In this document: positions 13,209 through 44,378 of the stretch, piece by piece
How positions within the stretch are numbered: the stretch's first letter is position 1
Layout of the letters: every line of letters begins with the position of its first letter
Virus record (IMG/VR): IMGVR_UViG_3300031758_000112
Span: 1-51,999 of that record
Direction: 5' to 3' (one strand)
DNA from: a virus
Lineage: Duplodnaviria; Caudoviricetes
Length of the DNA: 51,999 bases
Translations under genes and position numbers: made by a program
The notes under the pieces: generated by a model
What the model saw: only the letters and a program-made list of their open reading frames with translations
Database searches by the model: none
What the model was told of the DNA's origin: nothing

Positions 13209-13459
13209 TGACACAAGACACGAAAATCTGGAGCGAAGACTTTGTATTGGCCAACCCTAAATTGGCAGCCGATGCCATTGGTTGTCTCATTGAGTTGAAC
13301 GAGTACGCGCGCAACAATACGCTTGATGAGATCTCAAAGAAAATAGCCGCCATGCCCGGAGACACGGCGGCTGGTATTGCCATCTGGATTCGAGAACAGA
13401 AAACTATTTCCGCTTCTCGCCCTCAACAGTTAGACCTTCCTTTAGACGCTGCTTCTTGA
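13208..13459 (+). CDS. Hypothetical protein
   Basis: TGATG-coupled to polA. Overlaps the end of the convergent giant gene by 56 nt. Confidence 0.55.
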   Translation: MTQDTKIWSEDFVLANPKLAADAIGCLIELNEYARNNTLDEISKKIAAMPGDTAAGIAIWIREQKTISASRPQQLDLPLDAAS

Positions 13460-16400
13460 TCTGCTGAAGCTCGCGTTGTGCATCGGCGTTCTTCTCAGTG
13501 ATGGCGCCTTTGCCAGCAAGCCTGTCGATCTGACGCATCTCAGCTTCAAGATCGCGTATCAGTTTTTCTTGCTGCGCTTTGTTGATCTGTTCTGATAACT
13601 CCAGATCGATTGGTCTTGCTTTGATACCCATGGTCTGCATTGCTGCGTAGCCGGGTTGTACTGGCAGGCCGTCTTTGCCTGTGCCGGTGTAGCCCAAAAT
13701 GTCTTGGCCGGTCACGTTGGCAATCACATTGAGCGCGCGGTCCCAGTGGTAGTTGCCAATGGCAACGGCCGGTGCAAACTGCTGCCACAACCACTTGCCG
13801 CGTTTGGCTGCGGCCTCTGCGCTGGTGTCGTTCTTGTCAACAATGTCTTTGCCAAAGAACGGGTCCTTGTTCCAGATCATTGCGCCGACTGTGTTGAGTA
13901 TCGGGTTGCTTGGTGTGATCGGCTGCAAAAGCGGGACGCCGCCGGCGTTGGCGTTTGCGTCTAGCAAGTCGCCGCCCGGGAAGACCCGGCTTACGTCCAA
14001 GAACACGGGCAGGTTGGTCACGTCGTCCATGCCAAGGCGGATAGCCTTTGGTGTGGCCAGCGTGGCGCTGGCGCCCTTCATCCAAGGCGGTAGGTTTTCG
14101 CGCTCTTGCTTCTCTATCTCGCGCGCCTTGTTCCTAAATTCAGGGTCGGTTGCGTAGCGGCGGATGACGGTCCACCAGTCTTCGTCCTCACCACCGCCAA
14201 GGCTGGCAGCCATTGCGTACATGAAGGCGTTGACTGTGTACAGCGCAGCAGCCGGGGCAGCGTATCGCATTGGGTGCTCAAGCGCCGTGCGCGCCAGCAC
14301 TGGCACGACCTTGTATGTGTAGCTAAAGAACGGCAGCGCAAAGTCACGAGCCAGACGCGCGCCCTTGGGCAGGTCGTCGTAGGTAAAGATAAAGTTCTGT
14401 GACCAATCGACCGCGTCTTCTACGTCGACCCCGCGCTTGCGCGCGTCACGGTAAATCAAGTAGCGGAAGAACAAGTCTTCGGCTTCGTACGCTTTGCCGG
14501 CCGGCTTGCGCAAGAAGAATGACAGGGCGTTGAACACCCGGTCAACAGCCATACCTGCTTTGGACTCCGTCATCTGGGCCATGGCCTTGAGCTGTTCTGG
14601 CAGCTGGTCCATTAACTCAGAACGGTTGAACGTGCCGCCAAACAAGCCAGCCTCTTTGGCTTCGTCAACCATGGGGTCGCCCTTGATCAGATCGCGCACT
14701 GCGCCGCCGTACTTACCGGCATCCCAGTAAGACACGCCAGCAAAGTGAGCCATGGTCAAGTTAGACAAAACGTTGTTGGCATGCGATACGGGATTGAGAA
14801 CGGTCTTGCCCTCTTTCCACATCGACAAACCTTTGAGATACATCTTGAGCAAATCGTTTTGCATTGATGTGTCAAAGGTGCTGAGCTGGTCCATCACTTC
14901 TTTGGGCACCCACTTACCGGCGAGCTTGCCATAGCGGCGAACGTTTGCGGTGTCTTCAATTGTGGATGAGGGAACCTTGACGTAACCGGGTTTTTCTACG
15001 CGACTTGCGTATGATGTTGCAAGGTTTTCATACAGACGGCCAAGCGCCATGTCGCGTTGGGATTTGTTGTAGCCCATGACAAAGCGGAACATGGCATCTC
15101 GGATCTCGCCCATGTCGTCGCGCTCGGTGCGTGTGTAGTCGCGCCACATTGTCACGACGTCACTGGTCAGCGGGTCGAACGTAGGATCGCGCACTTCCCA
15201 GCCTTCGTCGAGCCAGTCTTGCACGTCAGCAACGGGCACGTTCTCAAACATACCGCGAGCCTTGAGGCTGTTGCCGGTGATGCCCTGCATTGTGCGGGTG
15301 CGGCCCATCAAACTCTTGGCCGCTTTCATCCATGCTTTTGTTTCGTCGCCAATCTTGGACTCATAGAAACGTGGCAAGTATTTGCCGTCCCAGCGGCCAG
15401 CTGCTTCCGGTGTCAGCATGCCCAAGCGCACCAGTTCTGCGGTCTGTTCGGACATGATTGATTGCATTGAAGCGGCCAAATCTAACACACGCTTGGGTGG
15501 CTTGACGCCGCGCTTGAGTTCGCCCTCGATCACATCGCTGATCATCTGGCGCTCTTGCTCTGGCAAGTCTTTGAGGTTCTTGGCCACGTCGACCGTGAGG
15601 GCCTGCGCCTTCTCAACTTCGGTCTTCATCTTGCGCAGCGCGCGGCTCAGCTCAGGGCTGACTGGCTTCATGCCAATTCTGTCTAGTACGTTGTTGGCCA
15701 CATCGGCCACCAGACGGTAGGCCTTGGCGCCTGCACCAAAGCGGAAGCGGCCGGTGGCATCGCGGCTGAGGATCCAACCCTCAGTCTGGCGATTGCTGAA
15801 CATCATGTCAGCTGGGTTTTCTTGGCGCCACTGCGAGGCGGCTAAGACAAAGGCGTCAAAATCTTTGTCGCCAAACTCATCTATCGTTTTGTAGCCAGCC
15901 TCTTCGGCCTTCTCTTGCAGAAAGACCTGTTGCTGCTTGGCGTCTTCCGAAAGCTCTCTTTGTTTTACCGAGTAGCTTGGCCCTTCAAACTGACCCCGGC
16001 CTCGGCCTTCGCCAACAGCGCGCGTTTCGTCGCCAATAGTTTGGCCTGTGCTTCGGCCTTCTGGGCCGGTGTTAAAACCACGGGTGGTTGCGTCGTAGAC
16101 CGCTTGGTTGATGCGCCCTGCTTCAAGTTCTTTGTCTGTTGCATTTTGAAATTTCTCCCTCAAACCTTCTCTACTGACCACTGGAATTTCTTCAAGTGGA
16201 ACTACGGCAAAGTTACCGTTGCCTCGGCTGTTGTCGACCGCGACAATGTCGAACAATGGGTTGTCTGCAAAATCTCCTTGCAGCTTGAGCACCGTTTCGT
16301 TTGATCCTGCGTGGCCTTTTACCAAAGCATCAAGCGCAACAGTGCGCCCGTTCTTTGGGTCCATGGCTCGCTTGAATACCCCGGCAACTAGAGAGTCGAC

Positions 16401-18170
16401 AGGTTCGCGATATACATAAGCAATCATAACTGCTTGGCCAGAATCAAGAGCAAGCTGGATATTGCGCACGGCCTTGGCGTAACCAGACAGCGTGCCGTCA
16501 AGAATTGTGTTGGCTCGGTTGAACACATCGTCTAGCAAGGTCTCGGCACTGGACTTGCCGGAGCCGCCGCCACCGGCCATAAACAGCACAAGGCCGCCCG
16601 GTCTCTCGCGCATTTCTTGCATGCGTTTTTCAAACAGTTGCTGAGTAAAGGCGCTGGCTGCTTCGTGCACTTCAGGCGCGCGGTTGCGATCGGCCCTGTA
16701 TTCCGGCGACAGCAGGCGTGCCAGATCGGTGTCAAGCAGGCGGCCTTTTTTGGTGCCGTTGATTGCGCTGTACTCTTCAACAGCTGCGTCAAAGTCAGAA
16801 AAGATTTTTTGTTCAAGCAGCCTGTTGAGGTCGTCTTCTCTGGCGCTGAACGCAATCGGTGCGCCGGTGATGTCTTTGCCATCTTCGCTGAACGTGGCGT
16901 TCTTGGCCAACACCAAAGGGCCGATCTGGATCACCTCGTCGGCGCTCAGAACTGGGCGCATGGTGTCGCGGTCGTAGAAGTAGCTGTGGCGGAATGGGTC
17001 CATGCCGACCTGTGTCCAAGCCGAGTCTTTGATGGCGGCATCAGCCCGAACCTTTGCGGCTTGGTTGCTGATGGGTTTCCACTTACCAAGCATGGTGGCA
17101 ATCGTGCCCTTGCTTGTACCCTGTGCAATCTTGATTGCCGCCTTTTGGTTCATGCCAAAAGTTACGTCGGTCATTGATGCTACGGATTCGTAGCCAATGA
17201 CAGTGCCTGCGTCATACGCTGCTTGCACTTCACGGTTGGTGGACTTAGGTGTGTGAATGCTGACCACCCACGAGTCATGCTCTTGGTACGAAGGGATGTC
17301 CAAGCGCAGTTGGGCAAAGTCGCCTTTGGCCAAGGTGCTTGATGGCAGGCCATACTTGGCCGCCTTCTCCGGGCTTTGACCACGGCCATTGGCCAAAGCA
17401 TATTTAGCGTCGGCTGGTGTTGTGAGCGCAGGGACTTTTTCGTACGGATAGACCGGGCGAAGGTCGTCGACCATGGCGTTGTATTCGTCTTGGGTAATCT
17501 TGCCTTCTTGCAAGTCGGTGACGGCTTGCTGCAATTCGTCGGTTCGCTTGAATCGATCAGAGCTAACGTTGGACACGCGGCTTGCTGCCGCATTCTTTTG
17601 TTCGCGGCGGCTAAGGCTAGGTGCAATTACTTTACGGGCTACGATGCCAAGGCCAACATCAAGCTCGGTTGCATATCGAACCGGGTTTTCTACGGGGTAT
17701 AAATATTTAACGCCGCCCGGGGCAATGTCAAACTTAGAATCTTTGGGCACCAAAGTTTGATCTCGATATTGATCAAATTGTTTTTGAGTAGTTACTTTTA
17801 TAGGCTCGCCAATTGTTACCGCGCCAATTGCTTTAGCAGGGCCGTCGCCAGTTCTAACAATGGCAACTCGTTTTCCTACGTAGGGGCGAAGCGAATCCGA
17901 AGCCCTAGTTTCTAAAGTTTTTTGGCCGTCAACAATTTTATCTGCGTATTGATTTTCACCGTCTTGATTGACATTAATGCCAATGCTTTCAGTTTGTTCG
18001 CGTCGGCTAAGTGCTGGCGCCCCACCTCCGGCCTCAGCAAGCGCGGTTGCCCGAGCAGGCAAGTACTGAGCCAGCCCACCTTCAAGCAGGAATTCTTTAA
18101 GGGCGGGTATCCCCTTAACCGTGATGCTCTTACCGTCAGCACCAGTGAACGTGTATTTACATGTTGCCAT
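13404..18170 (-). CDS. Giant polyvalent / ejection protein (1588 aa): ASCH-like domain, unknown domain, zeta-toxin-like P-loop kinase, helical C-terminal ejection-type region
   Basis: YADKIVDGQKTLETR...GKRVAIV...AIGAVTIG (ASCH). VLFMAGGGGSGKS, ILDGT, YVYREP, GRTV (zeta-like). Last gene of the virion operon. Confidence 0.75.
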   Translation of the reverse strand: MATCKYTFTGADGKSITVKGIPALKEFLLEGGLAQYLPARATALAEAGGGAPALSRREQTESIGINVNQDGENQYADKIVDGQKTLETRASDSLRPYVGKRVAIVRTGDGPAKAIGAVTIGEPIKVTTQKQFDQYRDQTLVPKDSKFDIAPGGVKYLYPVENPVRYATELDVGLGIVARKVIAPSLSRREQKNAAASRVSNVSSDRFKRTDELQQAVTDLQEGKITQDEYNAMVDDLRPVYPYEKVPALTTPADAKYALANGRGQSPEKAAKYGLPSSTLAKGDFAQLRLDIPSYQEHDSWVVSIHTPKSTNREVQAAYDAGTVIGYESVASMTDVTFGMNQKAAIKIAQGTSKGTIATMLGKWKPISNQAAKVRADAAIKDSAWTQVGMDPFRHSYFYDRDTMRPVLSADEVIQIGPLVLAKNATFSEDGKDITGAPIAFSAREDDLNRLLEQKIFSDFDAAVEEYSAINGTKKGRLLDTDLARLLSPEYRADRNRAPEVHEAASAFTQQLFEKRMQEMRERPGGLVLFMAGGGGSGKSSAETLLDDVFNRANTILDGTLSGYAKAVRNIQLALDSGQAVMIAYVYREPVDSLVAGVFKRAMDPKNGRTVALDALVKGHAGSNETVLKLQGDFADNPLFDIVAVDNSRGNGNFAVVPLEEIPVVSREGLREKFQNATDKELEAGRINQAVYDATTRGFNTGPEGRSTGQTIGDETRAVGEGRGRGQFEGPSYSVKQRELSEDAKQQQVFLQEKAEEAGYKTIDEFGDKDFDAFVLAASQWRQENPADMMFSNRQTEGWILSRDATGRFRFGAGAKAYRLVADVANNVLDRIGMKPVSPELSRALRKMKTEVEKAQALTVDVAKNLKDLPEQERQMISDVIEGELKRGVKPPKRVLDLAASMQSIMSEQTAELVRLGMLTPEAAGRWDGKYLPRFYESKIGDETKAWMKAAKSLMGRTRTMQGITGNSLKARGMFENVPVADVQDWLDEGWEVRDPTFDPLTSDVVTMWRDYTRTERDDMGEIRDAMFRFVMGYNKSQRDMALGRLYENLATSYASRVEKPGYVKVPSSTIEDTANVRRYGKLAGKWVPKEVMDQLSTFDTSMQNDLLKMYLKGLSMWKEGKTVLNPVSHANNVLSNLTMAHFAGVSYWDAGKYGGAVRDLIKGDPMVDEAKEAGLFGGTFNRSELMDQLPEQLKAMAQMTESKAGMAVDRVFNALSFFLRKPAGKAYEAEDLFFRYLIYRDARKRGVDVEDAVDWSQNFIFTYDDLPKGARLARDFALPFFSYTYKVVPVLARTALEHPMRYAAPAAALYTVNAFMYAMAASLGGGEDEDWWTVIRRYATDPEFRNKAREIEKQERENLPPWMKGASATLATPKAIRLGMDDVTNLPVFLDVSRVFPGGDLLDANANAGGVPLLQPITPSNPILNTVGAMIWNKDPFFGKDIVDKNDTSAEAAAKRGKWLWQQFAPAVAIGNYHWDRALNVIANVTGQDILGYTGTGKDGLPVQPGYAAMQTMGIKARPIDLELSEQINKAQQEKLIRDLEAEMRQIDRLAGKGAITEKNADAQRELQQIKKQRLKEGLTVEGEKRK
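17597..18011. repeat. 19-bp direct repeat (18/19 identical) flanking the ASCH-like domain
   Basis: TTTGTTCGCGGCGGCTAAG (17597-17615) vs TTTGTTCGCGTCGGCTAAG (17993-18011). Both encode LSRREQ. Confidence 0.85.
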
Positions 18171-18174
18171 GTGA

Positions 18175-18666
18175 TCAGGCTCCCAGCTCCTGATCGATCA
18201 AGAGCATGCCCGCTTTGTCGCCATCTACTAGCTGGATGCGTGCAAGCAAGTCGCCGTACTCGCCAACGCTGGTACGCTGGAGCTCCAGAAACTGAAGCAA
18301 AAACTGTTGGACCACGGGGTCGCTGCTGGTCTCGGAGTACATATTTTTGTAAGTGTTATACAGCTCAAGCTCAGTTTCATAGGCCAATTCCATGGCATCA
18401 GAAAACGATTTGATTGAATCATCCATGGCCTCAATCATTGGGACCTTGGCCACGGTGCCTACATCGTTTTGAAATTGTGCGTGCAGTTGGTAGTGATCCA
18501 ACTCGGCTTCGCTTTCTTTCAAAAAGAATTTCATCGCGCCAAGGTAACCAAGGCGCTGCACCTGATTGGCGATGTGTTTGTACAGGTTTGCTGCGTAAAG
18601 CTCAGCGTGAATTGCGTCGTCAAGCATGCGCTTGATGTCAGCGGAGATGATCATTGTTGGTGTCAT
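18175..18666 (-). CDS. ftn: Ferritin (non-haem FtnA-like)
   Basis: 163 aa, four-helix pattern. E22, Y29, E55, H58, E99 and Q130 match the spacing of E. coli FtnA ferroxidase ligands E17, Y24, E50, H53, E94 and Q127. Confidence 0.85.
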   Translation of the reverse strand: MTPTMIISADIKRMLDDAIHAELYAANLYKHIANQVQRLGYLGAMKFFLKESEAELDHYQLHAQFQNDVGTVAKVPMIEAMDDSIKSFSDAMELAYETELELYNTYKNMYSETSSDPVVQQFLLQFLELQRTSVGEYGDLLARIQLVDGDKAGMLLIDQELGA

Positions 18667-18675
18667 GGTAGGCCC

Positions 18676-21600
18676 TTATTTGCAATTGATTTCGACTAAG
18701 CCAGCTGTGTCCAGCTCGTCGAGGATGTCGAGAAAATTGTCCTGCATGTATTGAATTTGAGCCGCGTCTGACCGCCGCGCAATCACGGCTTGAACGTTTG
18801 TCTTGGCAAGGCCTCGACCATCCAGCTTAGTAAACAGATTGACAAGGGGCATAGCATTTGCCCTGCTGTCTAAAGTTTTTTCGGTTCTTGCTCGGATGAG
18901 GTCTGATCGCTCTTGTCCTTGGAACGGACCCAACCTTTGACCCGCGCCGCCAACCGGTCCAGTTGTTCCGGCGTTTTGCTTTCCAGCCATTTGTCGTGCT
19001 GGTCCTGATCCTGATTTGGCTGCTGTGTTGATTCGTTTAGCATCGAAGCCTTCTTTCTTTAGGAGAGATTGTGCCGCACCAGCGTAGTCTTGGCTAGTCA
19101 CGCGGAGCCTTACGCCCAGCTTTTTATAGAGCTCTTGTTCAGGGTACCAGATCAAGGCTTGCAACGCGGCCGGCGGCACGCGCTTACCAGTTTGCTTTTC
19201 AACCAGATCTACCATCTCGCGAACAACGCTGCGCAAACGCTGGCGTTCACCGCCACTGGACGGGGCGTCCGTAGGCTTATCTGCTGATTTTAATATGGAC
19301 CCAGCTGCGCCAACCAATGCGGTCTTCTTGCGCGTGCCAGCGTCAAACTTGGCGCGCTCTTTGATGAACTGCCTGTTGTGCAAACTGAACACCTTGCGCG
19401 CCAAAGCAATTGCGCCTTCGTCGGTTTGTTGCGCGGCAGCAACATCTTCTGGTTTGAAGTCTGCGGCGTAAACGCCCTCGGCCGATGAGCCTGTCTCAGC
19501 CAAAGCAGCGCGCAGCTTGGCCACTTGTTTGGGAAACAGGGCCGGGTCAAACGCTGGCAGCGTGCCACTTAAACGGCCGACGGTGCGCATGAACCACATG
19601 TCCATGGTCACGGGTTCAAAGTTGCCGGTCAAGTTGCTGTAAAAGCCAAAGCCAATCTTGGGTCCAAACACAGCGGACCCTAAAACCGTTTCGCCCATTG
19701 ACTCGCCACCAATCTTAAAGCCCATGCCTTCGAGATCCCGCTTGGTCAATTCAGTTTGTAAGAACCTGCGCAGATCAGGGGCGCCCAATTCTCTTAGCAA
19801 GCTGTTGGCCAGCGCAAAATTCTTGGCCATCGCTGGCGCAGACTTGCCAGTGCCCTGCTCTGGAAATGCGCCCGTATCCGTTTTGCGAAGGGCTTCGCGG
19901 AACGCTTCGTATTGATTTGACGCATAGCGCAAGTTGTCTTCTACGTTCATGGTCTGCGACGAGATGGCCACGGCCATCAAAAATGCATTGCGCGCGTCTG
20001 GGTCTGTGTTTAGTTCGGGGTACTTGACAGCCATGACACGCAGCGTTTTAGCTACAGTCTCGTCGTACCATTCGACAGCATTGCCCGCGCTGCGAATTGC
20101 GCCAACAGCCTCGGCTGCCAGCATGCGTGCCAGCGTGCTGCGGTCGTCGGCCTTGTTAAGGTCAAGCACCGGCATGCCCGCGTCACGGTAGCGCTGGTCA
20201 AGCCATTGCACAACTTCCGGAATGCCGCCAACTTTAGGCGCATCAAACGCATCGCTTTTGGTTTTGCCTGTCATCAAACCTAGAACAGAAGCGTCGTATT
20301 GTTCCTTGGACAAACCAAGCGCGTCGGCCACATTGCGGAACGTACCGAGATCGGTTGGCTTTTCTTCAACAGGCTCTGCTTGTTTATCGCTAAACCTGAC
20401 GGTGCTGCCGATGCGCTCCAGCTCTGTGTTGGCCGCGTCGCGTGAGGCAACGGGGATCTCCAGATTGCCAGCAGCAACACGGGCGCCCGGTACACGGGAT
20501 GCCTCGATAGTGGCCAGCTCTTTGGAAAGGAGACCCTTCTTCAGCGTTGTTGGTTCGGCTGCAACAGGGGCTGGGGCGCCAGCCACGCGGCCTATAGACT
20601 TGACAGGTACGGCCGAATGGCGCGGACCCAACAGGACGACAGCAGCTTGATTGTTCCCGAAAGGGGCAATGTAACCGTCAAAACCCCCGTTAATTACTGC
20701 GGATTCGAAGGCGTTGAAGTTTCCTTTGACCGGGAGTATCTGCGTTTGGGGGTCGTAGATGTTGTTGAGTCGGACTTCGTGGGCGATGCCTCCGACTCCG
20801 GACTCGGGGCGGACGCCGGAGCCTTGGTCAACATAGAAATAAACGCGGTTTTTGAGGCGAGGATCTGGGCTACCGTCCAGTCGATCGCGCTCTGCACCTT
20901 TGAGACCAGTCCCATAATAAGCTCCATTTAACGAAGTGCGGGCTTCGGTTGAGTAGTGGCGGGCGAGGACTGAGATGGCGCCTTCGCGGGCTGTTCCATA
21001 CTCTGGGGTTTCACCGCGCCCATCTCCACCAGCGAGTTGTCGAGTTGACGCTGTAGGCCCTGATACGCCTTCACCGCCTGTGGTGCTAATGCTTCCATTT
21101 AAAGTTCCTTTGTTATACGCGACGAGTGCGTCGCGGGCTATTGCCTTTGCCTTGTTTAAATCACGCAGGTAGGTGTCGACTTTGGCAGATTCTTTTCTGC
21201 CTTGAGTTGACGTGCCCTTAAGCGTGTCAATCAAATTGTCAATGATCTTAATCCATTTGTCGACAAAACCTTTAAAGCCTTGTGGGTCAGCAGCTGCCAC
21301 GTCCTGCCAGAACTTTTTGTCTGTGGCCCGGTTGCCTAGGAAATCGGCAACCATTTCGGACCGCAGGGTCTTGCCGGCCATTGCTTCTTGCAAGCGTTGT
21401 TCCCGCGCAACAGGATCGGCGATTGCGCCCAGCTCTTCCTTCATCAGGAAGTTTTCAAGGTATGCGCGTTTACCCGCATCGGTCATCTCGTCAAAGATGC
21501 CGTCCATGCTGGCCACGTATTGCTGAGCGGCCGTGTTGGTTTGGCCTTGCTTGGCTTCCAGTTTTGCAAGCTGTTCAACCGTGTGATGGAATTCGTGTAG

Positions 21601-23934
21601 GCCTGTGCGCGCAACGTTGGTGTCAACGTTGGCTGTGTTAATGAAGGCCGCGCCGCCAATGGCCACGCCGTTTATGGCGTTGGCTCGGTCGTCGTTATAA
21701 GCGTAAACCCTAGCACCAAACTGGCTATTCAGCGCTTGAGCGATTTCATTGACTGCGCTGTCCAGTGCTACTGGAGACGCATTGAAAACCGCTGGGCTTT
21801 CTACACCGTTGGAAGTAGCCCACCTGTCGATAACATCTTGTGCAGTTGCTCTCGCTCCTGCTGCGGCAGACTCTCCTCCCACTGGCGCAATTGCGGCACC
21901 AGACACTTCCGATTCTGGGAGGGTAAGGGTTTTGTCGGCGGTGATGGTTTGGGTTGCTGCATCGGCTGATAGTACGGCAGGGACGTTTGTAAGTCCAGTG
22001 GCTGGGGTAGTACCAGCCACTTCCGCTTGACGCGCTGTGAGCTCAACTGACGCGCCTCTGCGGGTAATTGCAGGGATGGTCTCGTCAGTAGTGATGGCCT
22101 GAAGCTGGTCGTTGGACAGTTGCGAAACCGCAACACCTTGGATCTTTTGTGGACGCGGTGCAGTCAAACGCAACTTGTCCAAACCAAACTGTTGTTCTGT
22201 AGCAACGCTTGGTTCGGGCAACGTTAGGGCCTGCATTGTGTCAAGGGCAGGCAACGGCTCGTTGGGATCAAACGTTGGCTCGATCCGGCCAAGGGTATCT
22301 ACGGCCGGCAACGGCGGGGGTTCAATTGCAACAGGCGCAAGCGGCTTGGGTGTGATCTCCAGCGATCCGGCCAATTCATTTGCCGAGGTGACCGCGTCGT
22401 CAACCGAGGTTGATTGCAAAACGCGTGATGGGTCTGACGTTTGCAGCGGGCTGATCAACCGGGCGTCGTATGTCTGGGGACTTAATAGGTTACGGGCAGT
22501 TTGGTCAATACCTGTAAACTGGGTATTGGCAACGTTCTGTTCAATAGCCCGGGCAATCTGCGCGTTGGGGTCGTAGGCGCCCGTAGCAATGCCGGCAACT
22601 TGCGGCGTTGACATGACCGTGCCCGTAGCTGCGCCAATCACAGCGGCCTCACCAAGATCTTTGCTTAGCTCAATGTCTTTGCCTTGGAAAAACTTGTCAA
22701 GCACGTTGCCGCCAAATTGGGCAACCGTTTCTTCAACGGCGTTGGTAATGCCGTTGGCTGTGATTGCAACACCTGACTGCGCCAGTCTCTGTCCAGTAAT
22801 TGCCCAGATGGCGTTTTGCTTTGCAACCGATAGGCCTTTAAACGTGTCGCCCAATTTGTCAAAAACTTTTAACGGCAACATCTCTGTGCCGATTTCAATT
22901 GCGCCCTTGGTTACAGCTACCCGAGAGTCATCGCCCTGCGCGTAGCTTTGGCCAGCCGCTGTGCCGCCCATGCTGCCCAGCAAGGCTACGCGAAGCGGAG
23001 GTACAAAAGCCGCAGCCAATTGCTGTGCCATTTGAGGGGAGTTAGCCGCCAGCTTGGACATAAGCCACGGGCCAAACTCTTCGTTTTTCCACGCGCCTTC
23101 CATGCTGCGGGTGCCAATCTTAGGCATGTAATCTTGAGTGCTTTTGGCAAGGTATTCAGTACCAAACGCGGTAGGCGCTCTGGCCAAAGGTTTTAGACCG
23201 GCCAATTGCAAAACGGGGTTGACAACACTTTGGTTGATAAAGTCGGCCGCTACGCTTGGAATGTTTAAGGTGCCGCTAAGCAAACCCGCTGAACCGGCAG
23301 CAGCGCTGGCAAGCAAAGGGCTTTCTTCAGCAGAGCGTTGGCGACGCGCAGTTTCAACATCTTGCTGTAACAGCTCGTCGCTCTTTAACCGTTGAACCAG
23401 TTGGTCAAAAGTTTCGGCGCCTTGGGCTTCGCGAGCTTTGGCAACAGTAAGCGCGGGGCCCGGCTCAACCGGTACGCGCCCCATGCGCATTTGGTCGGCC
23501 TTGGCCACAGTCTCGCGACTGATAGGTCCTGCGCCATAGCCCAAGCGCTTGTCAATTTCGGCCTGTTGCTGTTGAGCTGTTAACGCAGGCGCTGTCTCCA
23601 ACACGCTTTTGTAGGGCGTGACTTTTTCCACAAAGGCGGGAACGATCCCACTAACCGTGCCTTTGATAGCCTCGGCCGCGCGCGACAGCACGCCCGGTGG
23701 CTCTTTTGGTTTAACAGGTGCAGGCGCGGGTGCAGGCGCGGGTGCAGGGGCTTCCTCCACTGGCGCCGCTTTGGGGGCAGCAACCCGACTCGTCAGGTGG
23801 CTTATGATTTCGTCGTCGCTAACGCCGTCCTTACGAGCGCTATCAACGTCGAAGTTTCTTTTGCTGGCAAGGTAGTCAGCAATCTCGGCCGGGCTGTATC
23901 CGTCCTTTAAAGCACCTTGAACGTCAAATGCCAT
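18676..23934 (-). CDS. Giant polyvalent / internal virion protein (1752 aa): zincin metallopeptidase, ART-like and HhH glycosylase-like domains
   Basis: N-terminal GYSxxEI-type repeats. HEFHH plus downstream EMVADF (zincin). RHYS...VYFY...GFDGY (ART-like). WYD...GPKIG.F..NL.G...VTMDMWFMR...LQALIW (HhH-like). Confidence 0.72.
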   Translation of the reverse strand: MAFDVQGALKDGYSPAEIADYLASKRNFDVDSARKDGVSDDEIISHLTSRVAAPKAAPVEEAPAPAPAPAPAPVKPKEPPGVLSRAAEAIKGTVSGIVPAFVEKVTPYKSVLETAPALTAQQQQAEIDKRLGYGAGPISRETVAKADQMRMGRVPVEPGPALTVAKAREAQGAETFDQLVQRLKSDELLQQDVETARRQRSAEESPLLASAAAGSAGLLSGTLNIPSVAADFINQSVVNPVLQLAGLKPLARAPTAFGTEYLAKSTQDYMPKIGTRSMEGAWKNEEFGPWLMSKLAANSPQMAQQLAAAFVPPLRVALLGSMGGTAAGQSYAQGDDSRVAVTKGAIEIGTEMLPLKVFDKLGDTFKGLSVAKQNAIWAITGQRLAQSGVAITANGITNAVEETVAQFGGNVLDKFFQGKDIELSKDLGEAAVIGAATGTVMSTPQVAGIATGAYDPNAQIARAIEQNVANTQFTGIDQTARNLLSPQTYDARLISPLQTSDPSRVLQSTSVDDAVTSANELAGSLEITPKPLAPVAIEPPPLPAVDTLGRIEPTFDPNEPLPALDTMQALTLPEPSVATEQQFGLDKLRLTAPRPQKIQGVAVSQLSNDQLQAITTDETIPAITRRGASVELTARQAEVAGTTPATGLTNVPAVLSADAATQTITADKTLTLPESEVSGAAIAPVGGESAAAGARATAQDVIDRWATSNGVESPAVFNASPVALDSAVNEIAQALNSQFGARVYAYNDDRANAINGVAIGGAAFINTANVDTNVARTGLHEFHHTVEQLAKLEAKQGQTNTAAQQYVASMDGIFDEMTDAGKRAYLENFLMKEELGAIADPVAREQRLQEAMAGKTLRSEMVADFLGNRATDKKFWQDVAAADPQGFKGFVDKWIKIIDNLIDTLKGTSTQGRKESAKVDTYLRDLNKAKAIARDALVAYNKGTLNGSISTTGGEGVSGPTASTRQLAGGDGRGETPEYGTAREGAISVLARHYSTEARTSLNGAYYGTGLKGAERDRLDGSPDPRLKNRVYFYVDQGSGVRPESGVGGIAHEVRLNNIYDPQTQILPVKGNFNAFESAVINGGFDGYIAPFGNNQAAVVLLGPRHSAVPVKSIGRVAGAPAPVAAEPTTLKKGLLSKELATIEASRVPGARVAAGNLEIPVASRDAANTELERIGSTVRFSDKQAEPVEEKPTDLGTFRNVADALGLSKEQYDASVLGLMTGKTKSDAFDAPKVGGIPEVVQWLDQRYRDAGMPVLDLNKADDRSTLARMLAAEAVGAIRSAGNAVEWYDETVAKTLRVMAVKYPELNTDPDARNAFLMAVAISSQTMNVEDNLRYASNQYEAFREALRKTDTGAFPEQGTGKSAPAMAKNFALANSLLRELGAPDLRRFLQTELTKRDLEGMGFKIGGESMGETVLGSAVFGPKIGFGFYSNLTGNFEPVTMDMWFMRTVGRLSGTLPAFDPALFPKQVAKLRAALAETGSSAEGVYAADFKPEDVAAAQQTDEGAIALARKVFSLHNRQFIKERAKFDAGTRKKTALVGAAGSILKSADKPTDAPSSGGERQRLRSVVREMVDLVEKQTGKRVPPAALQALIWYPEQELYKKLGVRLRVTSQDYAGAAQSLLKKEGFDAKRINTAAKSGSGPARQMAGKQNAGTTGPVGGAGQRLGPFQGQERSDLIRARTEKTLDSRANAMPLVNLFTKLDGRGLAKTNVQAVIARRSDAAQIQYMQDNFLDILDELDTAGLVEINCK

Positions 23935-27777: not shown

Positions 27778-27856
27778 ATGAGAAAGCCGCGTGACGCGGC
27801 TTCTTGCGGGCGCACGAGCCCCGCACAGATTTTACTTTAATAACCGGGTTGGTCAA
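27778..27856 (-). promoter_or_regulatory. Promoter + hairpin + terminator-like leader upstream of the ejection genes
   Basis: Minus strand: TTGACC(27856-27851)-16-TAAAAT(27834-27829), then a hairpin containing TGCGCCC, then AAGCCGCG-TCA-CGCGGCTT followed by TCTCATTT. Confidence 0.6.
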
Positions 27857-44289: not shown

Positions 44290-44378
44290 AGAAAAAGCCA
44301 GCTCGGTGGCTGGCTTCGGTAAATTTTGGGCGCAACTCGCCCGAAGAAATTTTATAACAGATCGTGGCGCTTATGCAA
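44290..44378 (-). promoter_or_regulatory. Promoter + hairpin + terminator leader upstream of the capsid genes
   Basis: Minus strand: TTGCAT(44378-44373), TGTTATAAAAT (-10 at 44354-44349), GGGCG/CGCCC hairpin, then AAGCCAGC-N6-GCTGGCTT followed by TTTCT. Confidence 0.65.

What the first reader, a model, noticed from the sequence alone, without database searches (positions are those of the whole stretch)
18175..18666. Ferritin gene embedded in the DNA-ejection operon
Seen: an intact A/B ferroxidase ligand set (E22, Y29, E55, H58, E99, Q130), while the positions matching FtnA site C (E49, E126, E130) read A54, L129 and S133. The gene sits 9 nt and 4 nt from the two giant ejection genes, so it is probably expressed late. 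Known: auxiliary metabolic genes usually lie among early or replication genes. Inference: it may be packaged or co-ejected to sequester iron and protect DNA from Fenton damage, carry iron in the virion, or counter an oxidative defence.
Basis: partly seen in the sequence, partly recalled or inferred. Interest (0 to 1): 0.75.

Follow-up and report, generated by a model that had tools for sequence, protein, structure and literature searches.

The report
Phage ferritin among virion-internal protein genes
An uncultured lake-water phage carries an intact, virus-specific ferritin gene wedged between two giant genes that look like capsid-internal "ejection" proteins, and related phages keep the same ferritin next to their portal gene, which suggests the iron-handling protein is part of the virus particle, although that has not been shown.

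Summary
A 163-aa ORF on the minus strand (18666..18175) is a true ferritin. It passes the Pfam cut-off. Its AF2 model (pLDDT 97.9) matches 24-mer ferritins at TM 0.92-0.94. It keeps the ferroxidase ligands E22/Y29/E55/H58/E99/Q130 and lacks FtnA site C.

It lies 9 nt and 4 nt from giants of 1752 and 1588 aa. It belongs to a ferritin clade found almost only on viral contigs: a clade-motif scan gave 44 hits there against 1 in 185,579 prokaryote genomes. The clade is under purifying selection (dN/dS about 0.09), and the ligands are kept in 72 of 72 distinct proteins.

Of 93 loci with an intact gene, 76 have a giant (700 aa or more) beside the ferritin. In 11 it follows a portal or MuF-like gene, across four portal families. 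Of the other 6, five prove giant-type on inspection and one is unresolved. I saw none flanked by replication genes.

Parts of both giants match proteins at the T7 gp16 position or just after the portal in other podoviruses.

So "late, virion-module gene" is well supported. "Packaged or co-ejected" is plausible (about 0.5) but untested. The main rival is a late cytoplasmic iron/ROS helper gene.

Also seen: each giant has exactly one cysteine, at the end facing the ferritin gene.

The parts
18175..18666 (-). Ferritin gene, 163 aa including the stop codon. It has an intact A/B ferroxidase ligand set, no site C and no cysteine.
18676..23934 (-). Upstream giant, 1752 aa. It is a candidate capsid-internal or ejection protein. 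Its C-terminal half is homologous to giants at the gp16 position of T7-like podoviruses.
   Evidence: The model of the last 560 aa is all-alpha (pLDDT 80.6) with no PDB match.
13404..18170 (-). Downstream giant, 1588 aa, multidomain. Pfam matches: ASCH (weak, below the cut-off), L5 gp82-like, and a Zeta-toxin-type P-loop kinase. It resembles the polyvalent proteins of phages.
18667..18675 (-). 9-nt spacer between the stop of the first giant and the ferritin ATG. There is no room for a promoter. The same 9-nt gap occurs in 42 of 71 giant-type loci that have an upstream ORF.
18171..18174 (-). 4-nt spacer between the ferritin stop and the ATG of the second giant. A GGGAG Shine-Dalgarno-like motif lies inside the ferritin 3' end, so translational coupling is likely.
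   Evidence: Read. Downstream gaps range from -26 to +4 nt in 75 of 75 giant-type loci that have a downstream ORF.
18679..18888 (-). Conserved C-terminal module of the upstream giant, '...NFLDIL.EL.D.G.VKINC[KD]'. It holds that protein's only cysteine (C1751, codon 18684..18682).
18051..18170 (-). Conserved N-terminal module of the downstream giant, 'MA.CTY.FT..DGK..I.G.AAFKAFL..GGL'. It holds that protein's only cysteine (C4, codon 18161..18159).
27778..27856 (-). Promoter-like site (TTGACC-16-TAAAAT) followed by GC hairpins. It is the likely start of the transcription unit that contains five small genes, the first giant, the ferritin and the second giant.
44290..44378 (-). Second leader with the same TAAAAT-N14-TGCGCCC layout, ahead of the scaffold/capsid genes.
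13345..13372 (-). Strongest terminator-like hairpin of the region (12-bp stem, 8 GC pairs), 32 nt after the stop of the second giant. It is the likely end of the unit.

Best explanation
The gene encodes a working ferritin of a virus-specific clade with an H-chain-like di-iron ferroxidase centre and no site C.

It is made late, from the same transcript as the two giant proteins, and is translationally coupled to them. By positional homology the giants are capsid-internal or ejection proteins.

The most likely role is as a component or cargo of the head interior. There it would oxidise and sequester Fe(II), keeping Fenton chemistry away from the packed DNA and the internal proteins while the particle drifts in oxic, sunlit water. 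It might also enter the next host with them.

Shown: the ferritin fold, the ligands, purifying selection, virus restriction of the clade, conserved placement in virion-morphogenesis modules of several phage lineages, and tight operon structure.

Inferred: late expression, presence in the virion, and the protective role.
For: (1) True ferritin. It passes the Pfam cut-off. The model has pLDDT 97.9 and TM 0.92-0.94 to 24-mer ferritins, including the fifth helix. The ligands align with FtnA.

(2) Function is selected. E22/Y29/E55/H58/E99/Q130 are kept in 72 of 72 distinct locus ferritins, and median dN/dS is 0.09 over 259 pairs. In 65 representatives at 28-53% identity, E22, E51 and H58 are invariant and Y29, E55, E99 and Q130 are kept in at least 90%.

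(3) Virus-specific clade. A DNA scan for the motif QRKSVGEYGD found 44 stretches in IMG/VR and 1 in one genome for each of 185,579 prokaryote species. That one lies on a 10.9-kb MAG contig beside a 2355-aa ORF. In a quick IQ-TREE of 67 rows, the 45 viral ferritins form one clade (SH-aLRT 96) apart from E. coli FtnA and FtnB. The NCBIfam FtnA equivalog scores 26.2 bits against a cut-off of 178.

(4) Placement. Among 93 loci: 56 have giants on both sides; 20 have one giant and the other neighbour is short, absent or cut off by the end of the locus; 11 follow a portal or MuF-like gene; 6 are short or unclear. Four of those 6 carry the giant junction modules. The portal-adjacent cases involve four portal PHROG families: phrog_113, 6547, 21 and 12082. 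Their neighbours are a MuF-like 'minor head protein and DNA pilot', a scaffold, a Neck1 protein and, further on, a head maturation protease. On the tree these cases are scattered among giant-flanked ones (5 label changes).

(5) The giants look virion-internal. They match giants at the gp16 position and large post-portal proteins of other podoviruses. Atlas look-alikes carry polyvalent-protein domains, but the scores are below 0.9 and are leads only. Phage polyvalent proteins are predicted to be packaged (PMC5512222, passages).

(6) Operon. The gaps are 9 and 4 nt. No promoter-like site lies between the genes. A promoter-like leader at 27.85 kb has the same layout as the capsid-block leader. 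A terminator-like hairpin follows the second giant.

(7) A 420-nt contig from a lake-water RNA library bridges the junction between the first giant and the ferritin, 18539-18934. This is a weak hint only.

(8) Precedents. A Dps-like protein was found in phage G particles (PMC12484599, passages). A Phyre2-predicted ferritin was detected by mass spectrometry of a Vi01-like phage preparation (PMC10892097, passages).
Against: - There is no direct evidence that the protein is in any virion. The clade has no cultured member.
- That the giants are virion proteins is itself inferred from gene position and partial homology. Pfam finds no MuF or LPD domain in them.
- The ferritin has no extension beyond the standard five helices that could serve as a targeting peptide. 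It is acidic like cellular ferritins (pI 4.46 against 4.77 for FtnA).
- An assembled cage could not pass a tail channel (cage size recalled).
- The loci were found by peptide or motif patterns, so the sample is one clade. The roughly 80 giant-type loci are a few related lineages and are not independent events.
- Tight late placement could simply serve high late expression.
- A published reading of ferritin genes in freshwater phages is mitigation of reactive oxygen in the infected cell (PMC6802176, one passage). Its Table S5 is a supplement that I could not see.
- Contigs from RNA libraries cannot prove a transcript, and DNA may be present in such libraries.
Confidence: 0.5

Rival explanations
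1. Late cytoplasmic helper gene. The ferritin is not packaged. It is expressed strongly late in infection to mop up Fe(II) and limit oxidative damage to replicating and packaging DNA, or to manage iron released as host proteins are degraded. It sits in the late operon only because that gives the right timing and dose.
For: It is a complete, canonical, stand-alone ferritin with no visible targeting peptide. It is acidic like cellular ferritins. Ferritin is listed among ROS-defence genes of freshwater phages, with this interpretation (PMC6802176, one passage).
Against: An expression-only rationale does not predict the exact slot directly after the portal or MuF gene, or between the two giants. 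That slot recurs across four portal families and the giant type, and no locus had replication genes as neighbours. The clade is virus-specific and old rather than a recent host pick-up.
Confidence: 0.3
2. Assembly or redox partner of the giants. The ferritin works with the single terminal cysteines of the two giants. It might keep iron away from the thiols, supply oxidant for a disulfide between the giants, or supply iron for a bridged site. The two giants would then behave as one split protein until they reach a reducing host.
For: All 32 complete distinct upstream giants have exactly one Cys, penultimate in 30. All 60 complete distinct downstream giants have exactly one Cys, within the first 8 residues in 59. 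Both cysteines sit in conserved junction modules that face the ferritin gene. Ferritin-less homologous giants have 0-1 Cys and lack the modules.
Against: The same ferritin clade occurs after portal or MuF genes in loci where I saw no neighbouring giant. None of those 11 loci has a cysteine at the end of the upstream protein, and 2 have one in the first 8 residues of the downstream protein. The giants therefore cannot be its general partner. No chemistry was tested.
Confidence: 0.1
3. Iron-carrying particle. The virion-borne ferritin serves to deliver iron. It could act as bait for host iron uptake ('Ferrojan horse') or as a cofactor supply for phage enzymes after entry.
For: The idea is in print for tail proteins, and was invoked for a predicted ferritin in a Vi01-like phage (PMC10892097, passages).
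Against: The gene here sits with head-internal genes, not tail-fibre genes. That paper reports no dependence on the pathway in the one host it tested (abstract). I found no iron-dependent domain in the giants.
Confidence: 0.05
4. Hitch-hiking or decaying insert with no function.
For: None beyond its odd position.
Against: All ligands are kept in 72 of 72 distinct proteins and dN/dS is about 0.09. The gene is present in 45 of 54 syntenic loci with both neighbours conserved.
Confidence: 0.02

Closest known systems
Bacterial and archaeal 24-mer non-haem ferritins (E. coli FtnA; T. maritima, H. pylori, P. furiosus and A. fulgidus ferritins)
   Same: Same fold including the short fifth helix (TM 0.92-0.94). 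Same intrasubunit A/B ferroxidase ligands. Similar length and acidity.
   Different: Only 18-24% identical. It is far below the FtnA equivalog cut-off (26.2 against 178 bits). The site-C glutamates are replaced: L129, T132 and S133 here, and the motif IQRKSVGEYGDL across the family. It is encoded by viruses inside virion modules.
Eukaryotic H-chain ferritin centre (recalled; no such sequence was fetched)
   Same: An A/B di-iron site with Gln and no third site. The helix-D pattern Q-x-K-[AS]-[IV]-x-E-x-G-D resembles the animal-type tandem ferritin P0219 seen.
   Different: There is no evidence of closer kinship. Animal and bacterial ferritins score alike against the protein.
Ferritin-like proteins reported in phage particles: the Dps-like gp346 of Bacillus phage G and the predicted ferritin gp217 of Vi01-like phage Sajous1
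   Same: Ferritin-superfamily proteins detected by mass spectrometry of phage preparations. gp217 lies in an operon with a tail completion gene (PMC12484599 and PMC10892097, passages).
   Different: These are different branches: Dps-like, or assigned by Phyre2 only. gp346 matches the model only weakly (Foldseek E 3.5e-2). They occur in jumbo or Vi01-type myoviruses, not next to a portal or internal giants.
Encapsulin nanocompartments with ferritin-like cargo
   Same: A ferritin-superfamily protein encoded next to HK97-lineage shell-building genes. An iron-handling protein enclosed in a capsid-like shell is the proposed arrangement here.
   Different: Here there is a real phage with terminase, portal, tail and lysis genes. 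The protein is a full five-helix ferritin, not the two-helix EncFtn, and no C-terminal extension is visible. Cargo loading is not shown.
Capsid-internal and ejected phage proteins, and phage polyvalent proteins (T7 gp14-16, P1 Dar, T4 Alt and internal proteins, N4 vRNAP, MuF)
   Same: The neighbours are giant, modular, nearly cysteine-free proteins encoded in virion modules. They are partly homologous to proteins at the gp16 position and to post-portal proteins.
   Different: The main text of the polyvalent-protein survey mentions neither ferritin nor iron (PMC5512222, term search, 0 occurrences). The window's giants give no Pfam LPD or MuF hit.
Ferritin listed as a ROS-defence auxiliary gene in freshwater phage metagenomes (Kavagutti et al. 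2019)
   Same: Ferritin genes in uncultured freshwater phages. Lake-water RNA libraries from three studies hold near-identical pieces of this stretch.
   Different: The passage I read treats it as a host-helping gene and says nothing about its position in head or internal-protein modules. Its supplementary table was not visible to me.

Membership tests
Ferritin family (Pfam PF00210; classical ferritin) | Sequence score above the curated family cut-off | tested here: met
   57.6 bits against 24.5, E 1.7e-15; confirmed on the genome record
Ferritin family (Pfam PF00210; classical ferritin) | Four-helix bundle with a long B-C loop and a short fifth helix | tested here: met
   The AF2 model has helices 9-38, 42-68, 88-112, 117-147 and 151-162, pLDDT 97.9. 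TM is 0.92-0.94 to solved ferritins.
Ferritin family (Pfam PF00210; classical ferritin) | Intrasubunit di-iron ferroxidase ligands (Glu, Tyr, Glu, His, Glu, Gln) | tested here: met
   E22/Y29/E55/H58/E99/Q130 align with FtnA E17/Y24/E50/H53/E94/Q127 and are kept in 72 of 72 relatives
Ferritin family (Pfam PF00210; classical ferritin) | Assembly into a 24-subunit cage that mineralises iron | not testable with these tools
   Needs expression, SEC or EM, and iron-loading assays
Bacterial non-haem ferritin FtnA (NCBIfam NF007638 equivalog) | Score above the equivalog cut-off | tested here: not met
   26.2 bits against a cut-off of 178. E. coli FtnA scores 379.
Bacterial non-haem ferritin FtnA (NCBIfam NF007638 equivalog) | Third iron site C (FtnA E49, E126, E129, E130; site assignment recalled) | tested here: not met
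   The window has A54, L129, T132 and S133. S133 is kept in 71 of 72. Position 129 is hydrophobic or Thr in 68 of 72. Position 54 is Asp or Glu in 54 of 72.
Dps (12-mer DNA-binding ferritin-like proteins) | Dps-type fold without the C-terminal fifth helix, and a ferroxidase site between subunits (recalled) | tested here: not met
   The listed top PDB matches are all ferritins. The ligands are intrasubunit. Viral Dps-like models match weakly, E 7e-3 or worse.
Encapsulin cargo (EncFtn/Flp) | Two-helix EncFtn or Flp fold with a C-terminal targeting peptide, next to a shell gene in a locus without packaging genes (recalled) | tested here: not met
   Full five-helix ferritin ending at residue 163 with no extension. 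The locus is a phage with terminase, portal, tail and lysis genes.
Capsid-internal/ejection or polyvalent phage proteins (the two giants) | Large multidomain protein encoded within the virion-morphogenesis genes | tested here: met
   1752 and 1588 aa, in the minus-strand structural arm after the lysis gene. Homologous parts lie at the gp16 position or after the portal in other podoviruses.
Capsid-internal/ejection or polyvalent phage proteins (the two giants) | Recognised polyvalent-protein domains (MuF, LPD families, ART-PolyVal and others) | tested here: inconclusive
   Pfam gives Zeta_toxin above its cut-off (28.6 against 22.3 bits). L5 gp82-like is above its cut-off only when a 523-aa piece is scanned alone (28.3 against 27 bits; 26.1 bits for the whole protein). 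ASCH is below its cut-off. There is no LPD or MuF hit. Atlas look-alikes with LPD and ART-PolyVal domains score 0.76-0.84, which is a lead only.
Capsid-internal/ejection or polyvalent phage proteins (the two giants) | Physical presence in the virion and release on infection | not testable with these tools
   No cultured member exists. Virion proteomics are needed.

The most novel reading that the evidence does not exclude
This ferritin clade is genuine capsid cargo. Several lineages of tailed phages would then load an active ferritin into the head next to the portal, MuF or internal proteins, so that the virion is also an iron-handling compartment. That would be a functional counterpart, in real viruses, of ferritin-loaded encapsulins. 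In the window's lineage it would in addition work with a redox-sensitive link between the two giants, made by their single terminal cysteines, which is set in oxic water and released in the host.
Probability: 0.2. Interest if true: 0.85.

Novelty: new variant of a known kind. Interest (0 to 1): 0.65.

Why it matters
Ferritin genes in phages have been read as host-helping metabolic genes. Here a virus-restricted ferritin clade sits in a fixed slot beside the portal, MuF or giant internal-protein genes in several head-gene lineages. That points to a role inside the particle.

If it is packaged, three things would follow:
- it would be a new class of virion-internal protein, one that protects against oxidative decay;
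- it would be relevant to how long phages survive in sunlit water and to how much iron viral particles hold;
- it would give a concrete viral counterpart to ferritin-loaded encapsulins.

The one-cysteine rule of the flanking giants is a separate, sharply testable oddity. All of this rests on comparative genomics of uncultured phages, so the claim can be tested but is not yet established.

Tried and rejected
Closest deposited phages. Megablast of 11 kb and tblastn with four ferritins of the clade found nothing in 50,697 phage records, except one hit at 21% identity (E 2e-3). No cultured relative and no proteomics are available.

PHROGs and Pfam name only the ferritin part of P0140. The listing of cluster members gave no names. 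The fusions remain unexplained.

I used single proteins and a motif scan instead.

Complex prediction with the ferritin plus the two junction modules of the giants, ferritin as the partner, gave no verdict (score 0.30, mark 0.32, controls not run). This is evidence neither for nor against binding.

There is no Pfam hit at E up to 1. The AF2 model of the last 560 aa is all-alpha (pLDDT 80.6). Foldseek against the PDB gave no match at E 0.001 or better. The idea is not supported. The pdb_via_wide library was not available.

MuF likeness of the giants or of the small ORFs upstream. phmmer of the portal and MuF proteins against them gave no hit at E up to 1.

Junction modules in unsplit, ferritin-less giants. 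hmmsearch gave none at E up to 10, so I could not support a simple 'split by insertion' origin.

Stop-codon read-through fusing the first giant to the ferritin. The 9-nt gap is in frame, but gaps of 7, 8, 10, 11, -4 and -10 nt also occur, so read-through is not a general feature.

RNA libraries. Coverage is patchy and made of contigs only. Parts without cover, and the runs' small shares (0.05-0.15), say nothing about expression level.

Literature. 'phage-encoded ferritin' returned 0 papers. 'ferritin + virion + phage + internal virion protein' returned 0. Further term sets turned up only the papers cited. I found no description of a ferritin in portal-adjacent or internal-protein modules. The library lacks most subscription journals, and supplements were closed.
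Full report
THE THING ITSELF

The window is a whole IMG/VR virus record of 51,999 bp, estimated 93% complete. The ORF of the finding lies on the minus strand, 18666..18175, starts with ATG and encodes 163 aa.

It passes the Pfam Ferritin cut-off (57.6 against 24.5 bits). Its best solved relatives by sequence are ferritins. An AlphaFold2 model built on 65 relatives has pLDDT 97.9, with four long helices and a short fifth one. The model superposes on bacterial and archaeal 24-mer ferritins at TM 0.92-0.94 and rmsd 1.2-1.5 A.

I fetched E. coli ftnA from NC_000913.3 and aligned it. E22/Y29/E55/H58/E99/Q130 stand at FtnA E17/Y24/E50/H53/E94/Q127. A54/L129/T132/S133 stand at FtnA E49/E126/E129/E130. 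The assignment of those FtnA residues to sites A, B and C is recalled.

The protein is not an FtnA equivalog: it scores 26.2 bits against a cut-off of 178.

A VIRUS-SPECIFIC, CONSTRAINED CLADE

The word-indexed search gave 639 relatives, and the 120 listed are 77-97% identical. All sources are public genome or metagenome collections, and the only name given is 'ferritin'. The exhaustive search of 1.84 billion representatives found 415 hits at E up to 1e-3 and 105 at E up to 1e-10.

In 65 full-length representatives at 28-53% identity, E22, E51 and H58 are invariant. Y29, E55, E99 and Q130 are kept in at least 90%. Helix D carries the family motif IQRKSVGEYGDL where FtnA has EQHEEEKLF.

In 72 distinct ferritins taken from the loci, all six ligands are kept 72 of 72 times and S133 is kept in 71 of 72. 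Position 54 is Asp in 50, so the window's A54 is a subclade trait. Median dN/dS is 0.09 over 259 pairs, with dS near saturation.

A DNA scan for the motif found 44 stretches in IMG/VR, but only 1 in one genome for each of 185,579 prokaryote species. That one lies on a 10.9-kb MAG contig, next to a 2355-aa ORF.

A quick IQ-TREE of 67 rows puts the 45 viral ferritins in one clade (SH-aLRT 96), apart from E. coli FtnA and FtnB and from 20 low-scoring representatives of unknown origin. Membership was partly set by how the loci were found.

None of four clade members finds a relative in 50,697 deposited phage genomes, apart from one hit at 21% identity.

THE SURROUNDINGS IN THE WINDOW

The minus-strand arm reads, in order: terminase, portal, capsid protein, tail protein, amidase-domain protein, tail fibre, endolysin, five small unknown genes, the 1752-aa giant, the ferritin and the 1588-aa giant. 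It ends convergent with the DNA polymerase.

The ferritin is 9 nt from the first giant and 4 nt from the second. A GGGAG motif for the second giant lies inside the ferritin's 3' end.

The scan found no promoter-like site between the three genes. A TTGACC-16-TAAAAT site lies at 27856..27829, just after the endolysin. The strongest terminator-like hairpin lies at 13372..13345, 32 nt after the second giant. The totals of such sites in the region are not above the shuffled expectation.

Both have TAAAAT, then exactly 14 nt, then TGCGCCC, and a later GGCTTT hairpin arm. This is consistent with co-regulation with the capsid genes, though it rests on two copies only.

Pieces of the stretch occur in lake-water RNA libraries of three studies and in one estuary library, several of them with 0-1 differences. 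One 420-nt contig bridges the junction between the first giant and the ferritin. Contigs cannot prove a transcript.

WHAT THE GIANTS ARE

Pfam finds only a Zeta-toxin-type P-loop kinase, an L5 gp82-like domain and a weak ASCH domain in the 1588-aa protein. It finds nothing solid in the 1752-aa protein. PHROGs adds little, and no solved structure matches by sequence.

Residues 950-1676 of the 1752-aa protein are 30-34% identical to part of a 3125-aa protein of Limnohabitans phage DC33 and part of a 2792-aa protein of a podovirus genome. In the annotated record, the 2792-aa gene follows tail tubular protein A, a 'phage stabilization protein' and an M23 peptidase, and precedes the tail fibre. That is the position of T7 gp16.

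Residues 206-427 of the 1588-aa protein are 32-35% identical to part of CRP-207 gp58 (945 aa) and of a 994-aa protein of another podovirus. Both are encoded after the portal, with one or two small ORFs between, and before the coat protein.

The nearest deposited relative by capsid protein (41% identity) has a single 3145-aa giant and no ferritin.

Atlas look-alikes of both giants carry polyvalent-protein domains (LPD families, ART-PolyVal, Zeta_toxin). The scores are 0.76-0.89, so these are leads only. The polyvalent-protein survey predicts that such phage proteins are packaged. Its main text mentions neither ferritin nor iron (PMC5512222, term search and passages).

So 'ejection operon' is a reasonable label by positional homology, but it is not a demonstrated fact.

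THE KEY COMPARATIVE RESULT

First set. Of 54 IMG/VR loci found with the protein:
- 45 have homologues of both giants in the same order;
- 6 more have at least one on the same strand; in four of these (L013, L014, L028, L052) the ferritin lies at an end of the locus, L025 has a 1091-aa downstream ORF without a match to the 1588-aa giant, and in L054 the 1752-like gene lies on the other strand;
- 3 have neither (L050, L051, L053).

Combined set. After adding 44 motif-scan loci and L060, 99 loci were examined and 93 had an intact ferritin ORF. The 6 left out were L052, L054, L072, L081, L100 and L104, where the gene is partial or at a contig end. Of the 93:
- 56 have ORFs of 700 aa or more on both sides;
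- 20 have one such ORF, with the other neighbour short, absent or cut off by the end of the locus;
- 11 have the ferritin right after a portal or MuF-like gene;
- 6 were short or unclear.

Four of those 6 carry the giant junction modules. L076 ends like the L104 giant. L093 stays unresolved.

Even L053 and L060, whose ferritins are only about 42% identical to the window's, have the ferritin between ORFs of 1103 and 1488 aa, and of 2207 and 1570 aa.

The portal-adjacent cases are:
- terminase, portal (phrog_12082), a 100-aa ORF, then ferritin (L050, L051);
- portal (phrog_113), then ferritin after a 2-nt gap (L080, L094);
- portal (phrog_113), a MuF-like 'minor head protein and DNA pilot' (phrog_220), then ferritin (L070, L095, L102); in L082 the ORF before the ferritin is MuF-like too;
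- portal (phrog_6547) overlapping the ferritin (L085);
- portal (phrog_21), then ferritin (L065, L073), followed in L073 by a scaffold-like protein.

Downstream come a Neck1/tail-completion protein and, in L094, a head maturation protease and a virion structural protein.

On the ferritin tree the portal-adjacent rows are scattered among the giant-flanked ones (5 label changes, at least 2 forced by well-supported branches).

Spacing is tight everywhere. The upstream gap is 9 nt in 42 of 71 giant-type loci and ranges from -10 to +20 nt in all of them. The downstream gap ranges from -26 to +4 nt in all 75.

I saw no locus with replication genes flanking the ferritin. In giant-type genomes, the DNA polymerase lies convergent beyond the second giant.

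HOW IT MOST LIKELY WORKS

Established synteny of tailed-phage head modules is general knowledge, not a call. It says that the slot after the portal holds head components: MuF or pilot proteins, protease, scaffold.

The same virus-specific ferritin occupies that slot with four portal families, and otherwise sits between giant internal-type proteins. This is best explained by a job in or at the head.

The conserved ferroxidase ligands say the job is iron and oxygen chemistry. My reading is a head-internal ferritin that removes Fe(II) and so limits Fenton damage to the packed DNA and internal proteins. Delivery into the host is possible but not required.

My confidence by step:
- functional ferritin: about 0.9;
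- late co-expression with virion genes: about 0.75;
- physically in the particle: about 0.5.

Against this reading:
- there are no proteomics;
- no targeting extension is visible;
- acidity is ordinary (pI 4.46);
- the sample is shaped by how it was found and contains many near relatives;
- the published view is that freshwater phage ferritins mitigate ROS for the infected cell (PMC6802176, one passage; its Table S5 was not visible to me).

Precedents for ferritin-like proteins in particle preparations exist: phage G (PMC12484599, passages) and Vi01-like Sajous1 gp217 (PMC10892097, passages).

AN UNEXPLAINED COMPANION FEATURE

The upstream giants share a C-terminal module ending '...VKINC[KD]'. 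The downstream giants share an N-terminal module 'MA.CTY.FT..DGK..I.G.AAFKAFL..GGL', even where the rest of the proteins differ.

In the window, the 1752-aa protein has one cysteine (residue 1751), the 1588-aa protein has one (residue 4), and the ferritin has none.

All 32 complete distinct upstream giants have exactly one Cys, penultimate in 30. All 60 complete distinct downstream giants have exactly one Cys, within the first 8 residues in 59. Other virion proteins of the window have 2-7.

Ferritin-less homologous giants have 0-1 Cys in 945-3145 aa and lack the modules.

I had seen the modules before reading that note. A disulfide or metal bridge between the two giants is an obvious idea, but it is untested. 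It cannot be the ferritin's general role, because the portal-adjacent loci lack these modules.

COMPARISON AND NOVELTY

The protein is a ferritin by fold and centre. It is not an FtnA equivalog, a Dps or an encapsulin cargo (see the membership table).

Already in print: ferritin genes occur in freshwater phages, and ferritin-like proteins turn up in some phage preparations.

I did not find three things in print, in the searches:
- the virus-restricted clade;
- its fixed slot beside portal, MuF or giant internal-protein genes across head-gene lineages;
- the one-cysteine junction.

The searches cover an open-access library only, without supplements.

I rate it a new variant of a known kind, interest 0.65.

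Noticed in passing
window 18682-18684 and 18159-18161 (minus strand); loci L001-L103: Each giant has exactly one cysteine, at the end that faces the ferritin gene: C1751 of 1752 and C4 of 1588. The rule holds in 32 of 32 complete upstream giants and 60 of 60 complete downstream giants. Ferritin-less homologous giants have 0-1 Cys and lack the junction modules.
   Followed up: partly
window 27778-27856 and 44290-44378 (minus strand): Two leaders share TAAAAT, exactly 14 nt, then TGCGCCC and a later GGCTTT hairpin arm. One heads the block that contains the ferritin. The other heads the scaffold/capsid block (the lead came from note e1-6286384).
   Followed up: partly
loci L002, L009-L011, L015, L024, L027, L029, L039, L047 compared with the window giants: The giants are modular. 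In many relatives only the last ~55-68 aa of the upstream giant, or the first ~49 aa of the downstream giant, match the window, while the bodies differ. Effector-like domains appear to be shuffled between fixed junction modules.
   Followed up: partly
proteins P0140 (685 aa), P0203 (262 aa), P0125 (210 aa): Some members of the clade carry N-terminal extensions: a 520-aa region with no match in Pfam or PHROGs, or 50-100-aa acidic linkers. These might be fusions or targeting parts. Their gene context could not be fetched.
   Followed up: partly
window 18679-20358 (minus strand; last 560 aa of the 1752-aa giant): This is a well-conserved all-alpha region: 67-95% identical in 28 loci and 29% in 2 more. 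The AF2 model has pLDDT 80.6, with no Pfam hit at E up to 1 and no Foldseek PDB match. It may be a new fold.
   Followed up: yes
locus L054: After a partial ferritin and the first ~40 aa of a downstream-giant homologue, a homologue of the upstream giant lies on the opposite strand. This is either a rearrangement or an assembly artefact.
   Followed up: no
BFVD hits of the ferritin model: Several 'uncultured Caudovirales' proteins annotated as prohead protease (432 and 763 aa) or Dps (340-622 aa) give weak matches to the ferritin model (E 1e-2 to 9e-2). This hints at other links between ferritin-like domains and head maturation proteins.
   Followed up: no
window 16080-16830 (minus strand; downstream giant): A Zeta-toxin-type P-loop kinase domain scores above the Pfam cut-off (28.6 against 22.3 bits for the whole protein; 26.4 bits for a piece scanned alone). 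No partner antitoxin is evident. This is typical of phage polyvalent-type proteins.
   Followed up: no
window 18667-18678: The ferritin ATG is in frame with the stop codon of the upstream giant (TAA plus 9 nt). The 9-nt gap recurs in 42 of 71 giant-type loci, but other gap lengths occur, so general read-through is unlikely.
   Followed up: partly
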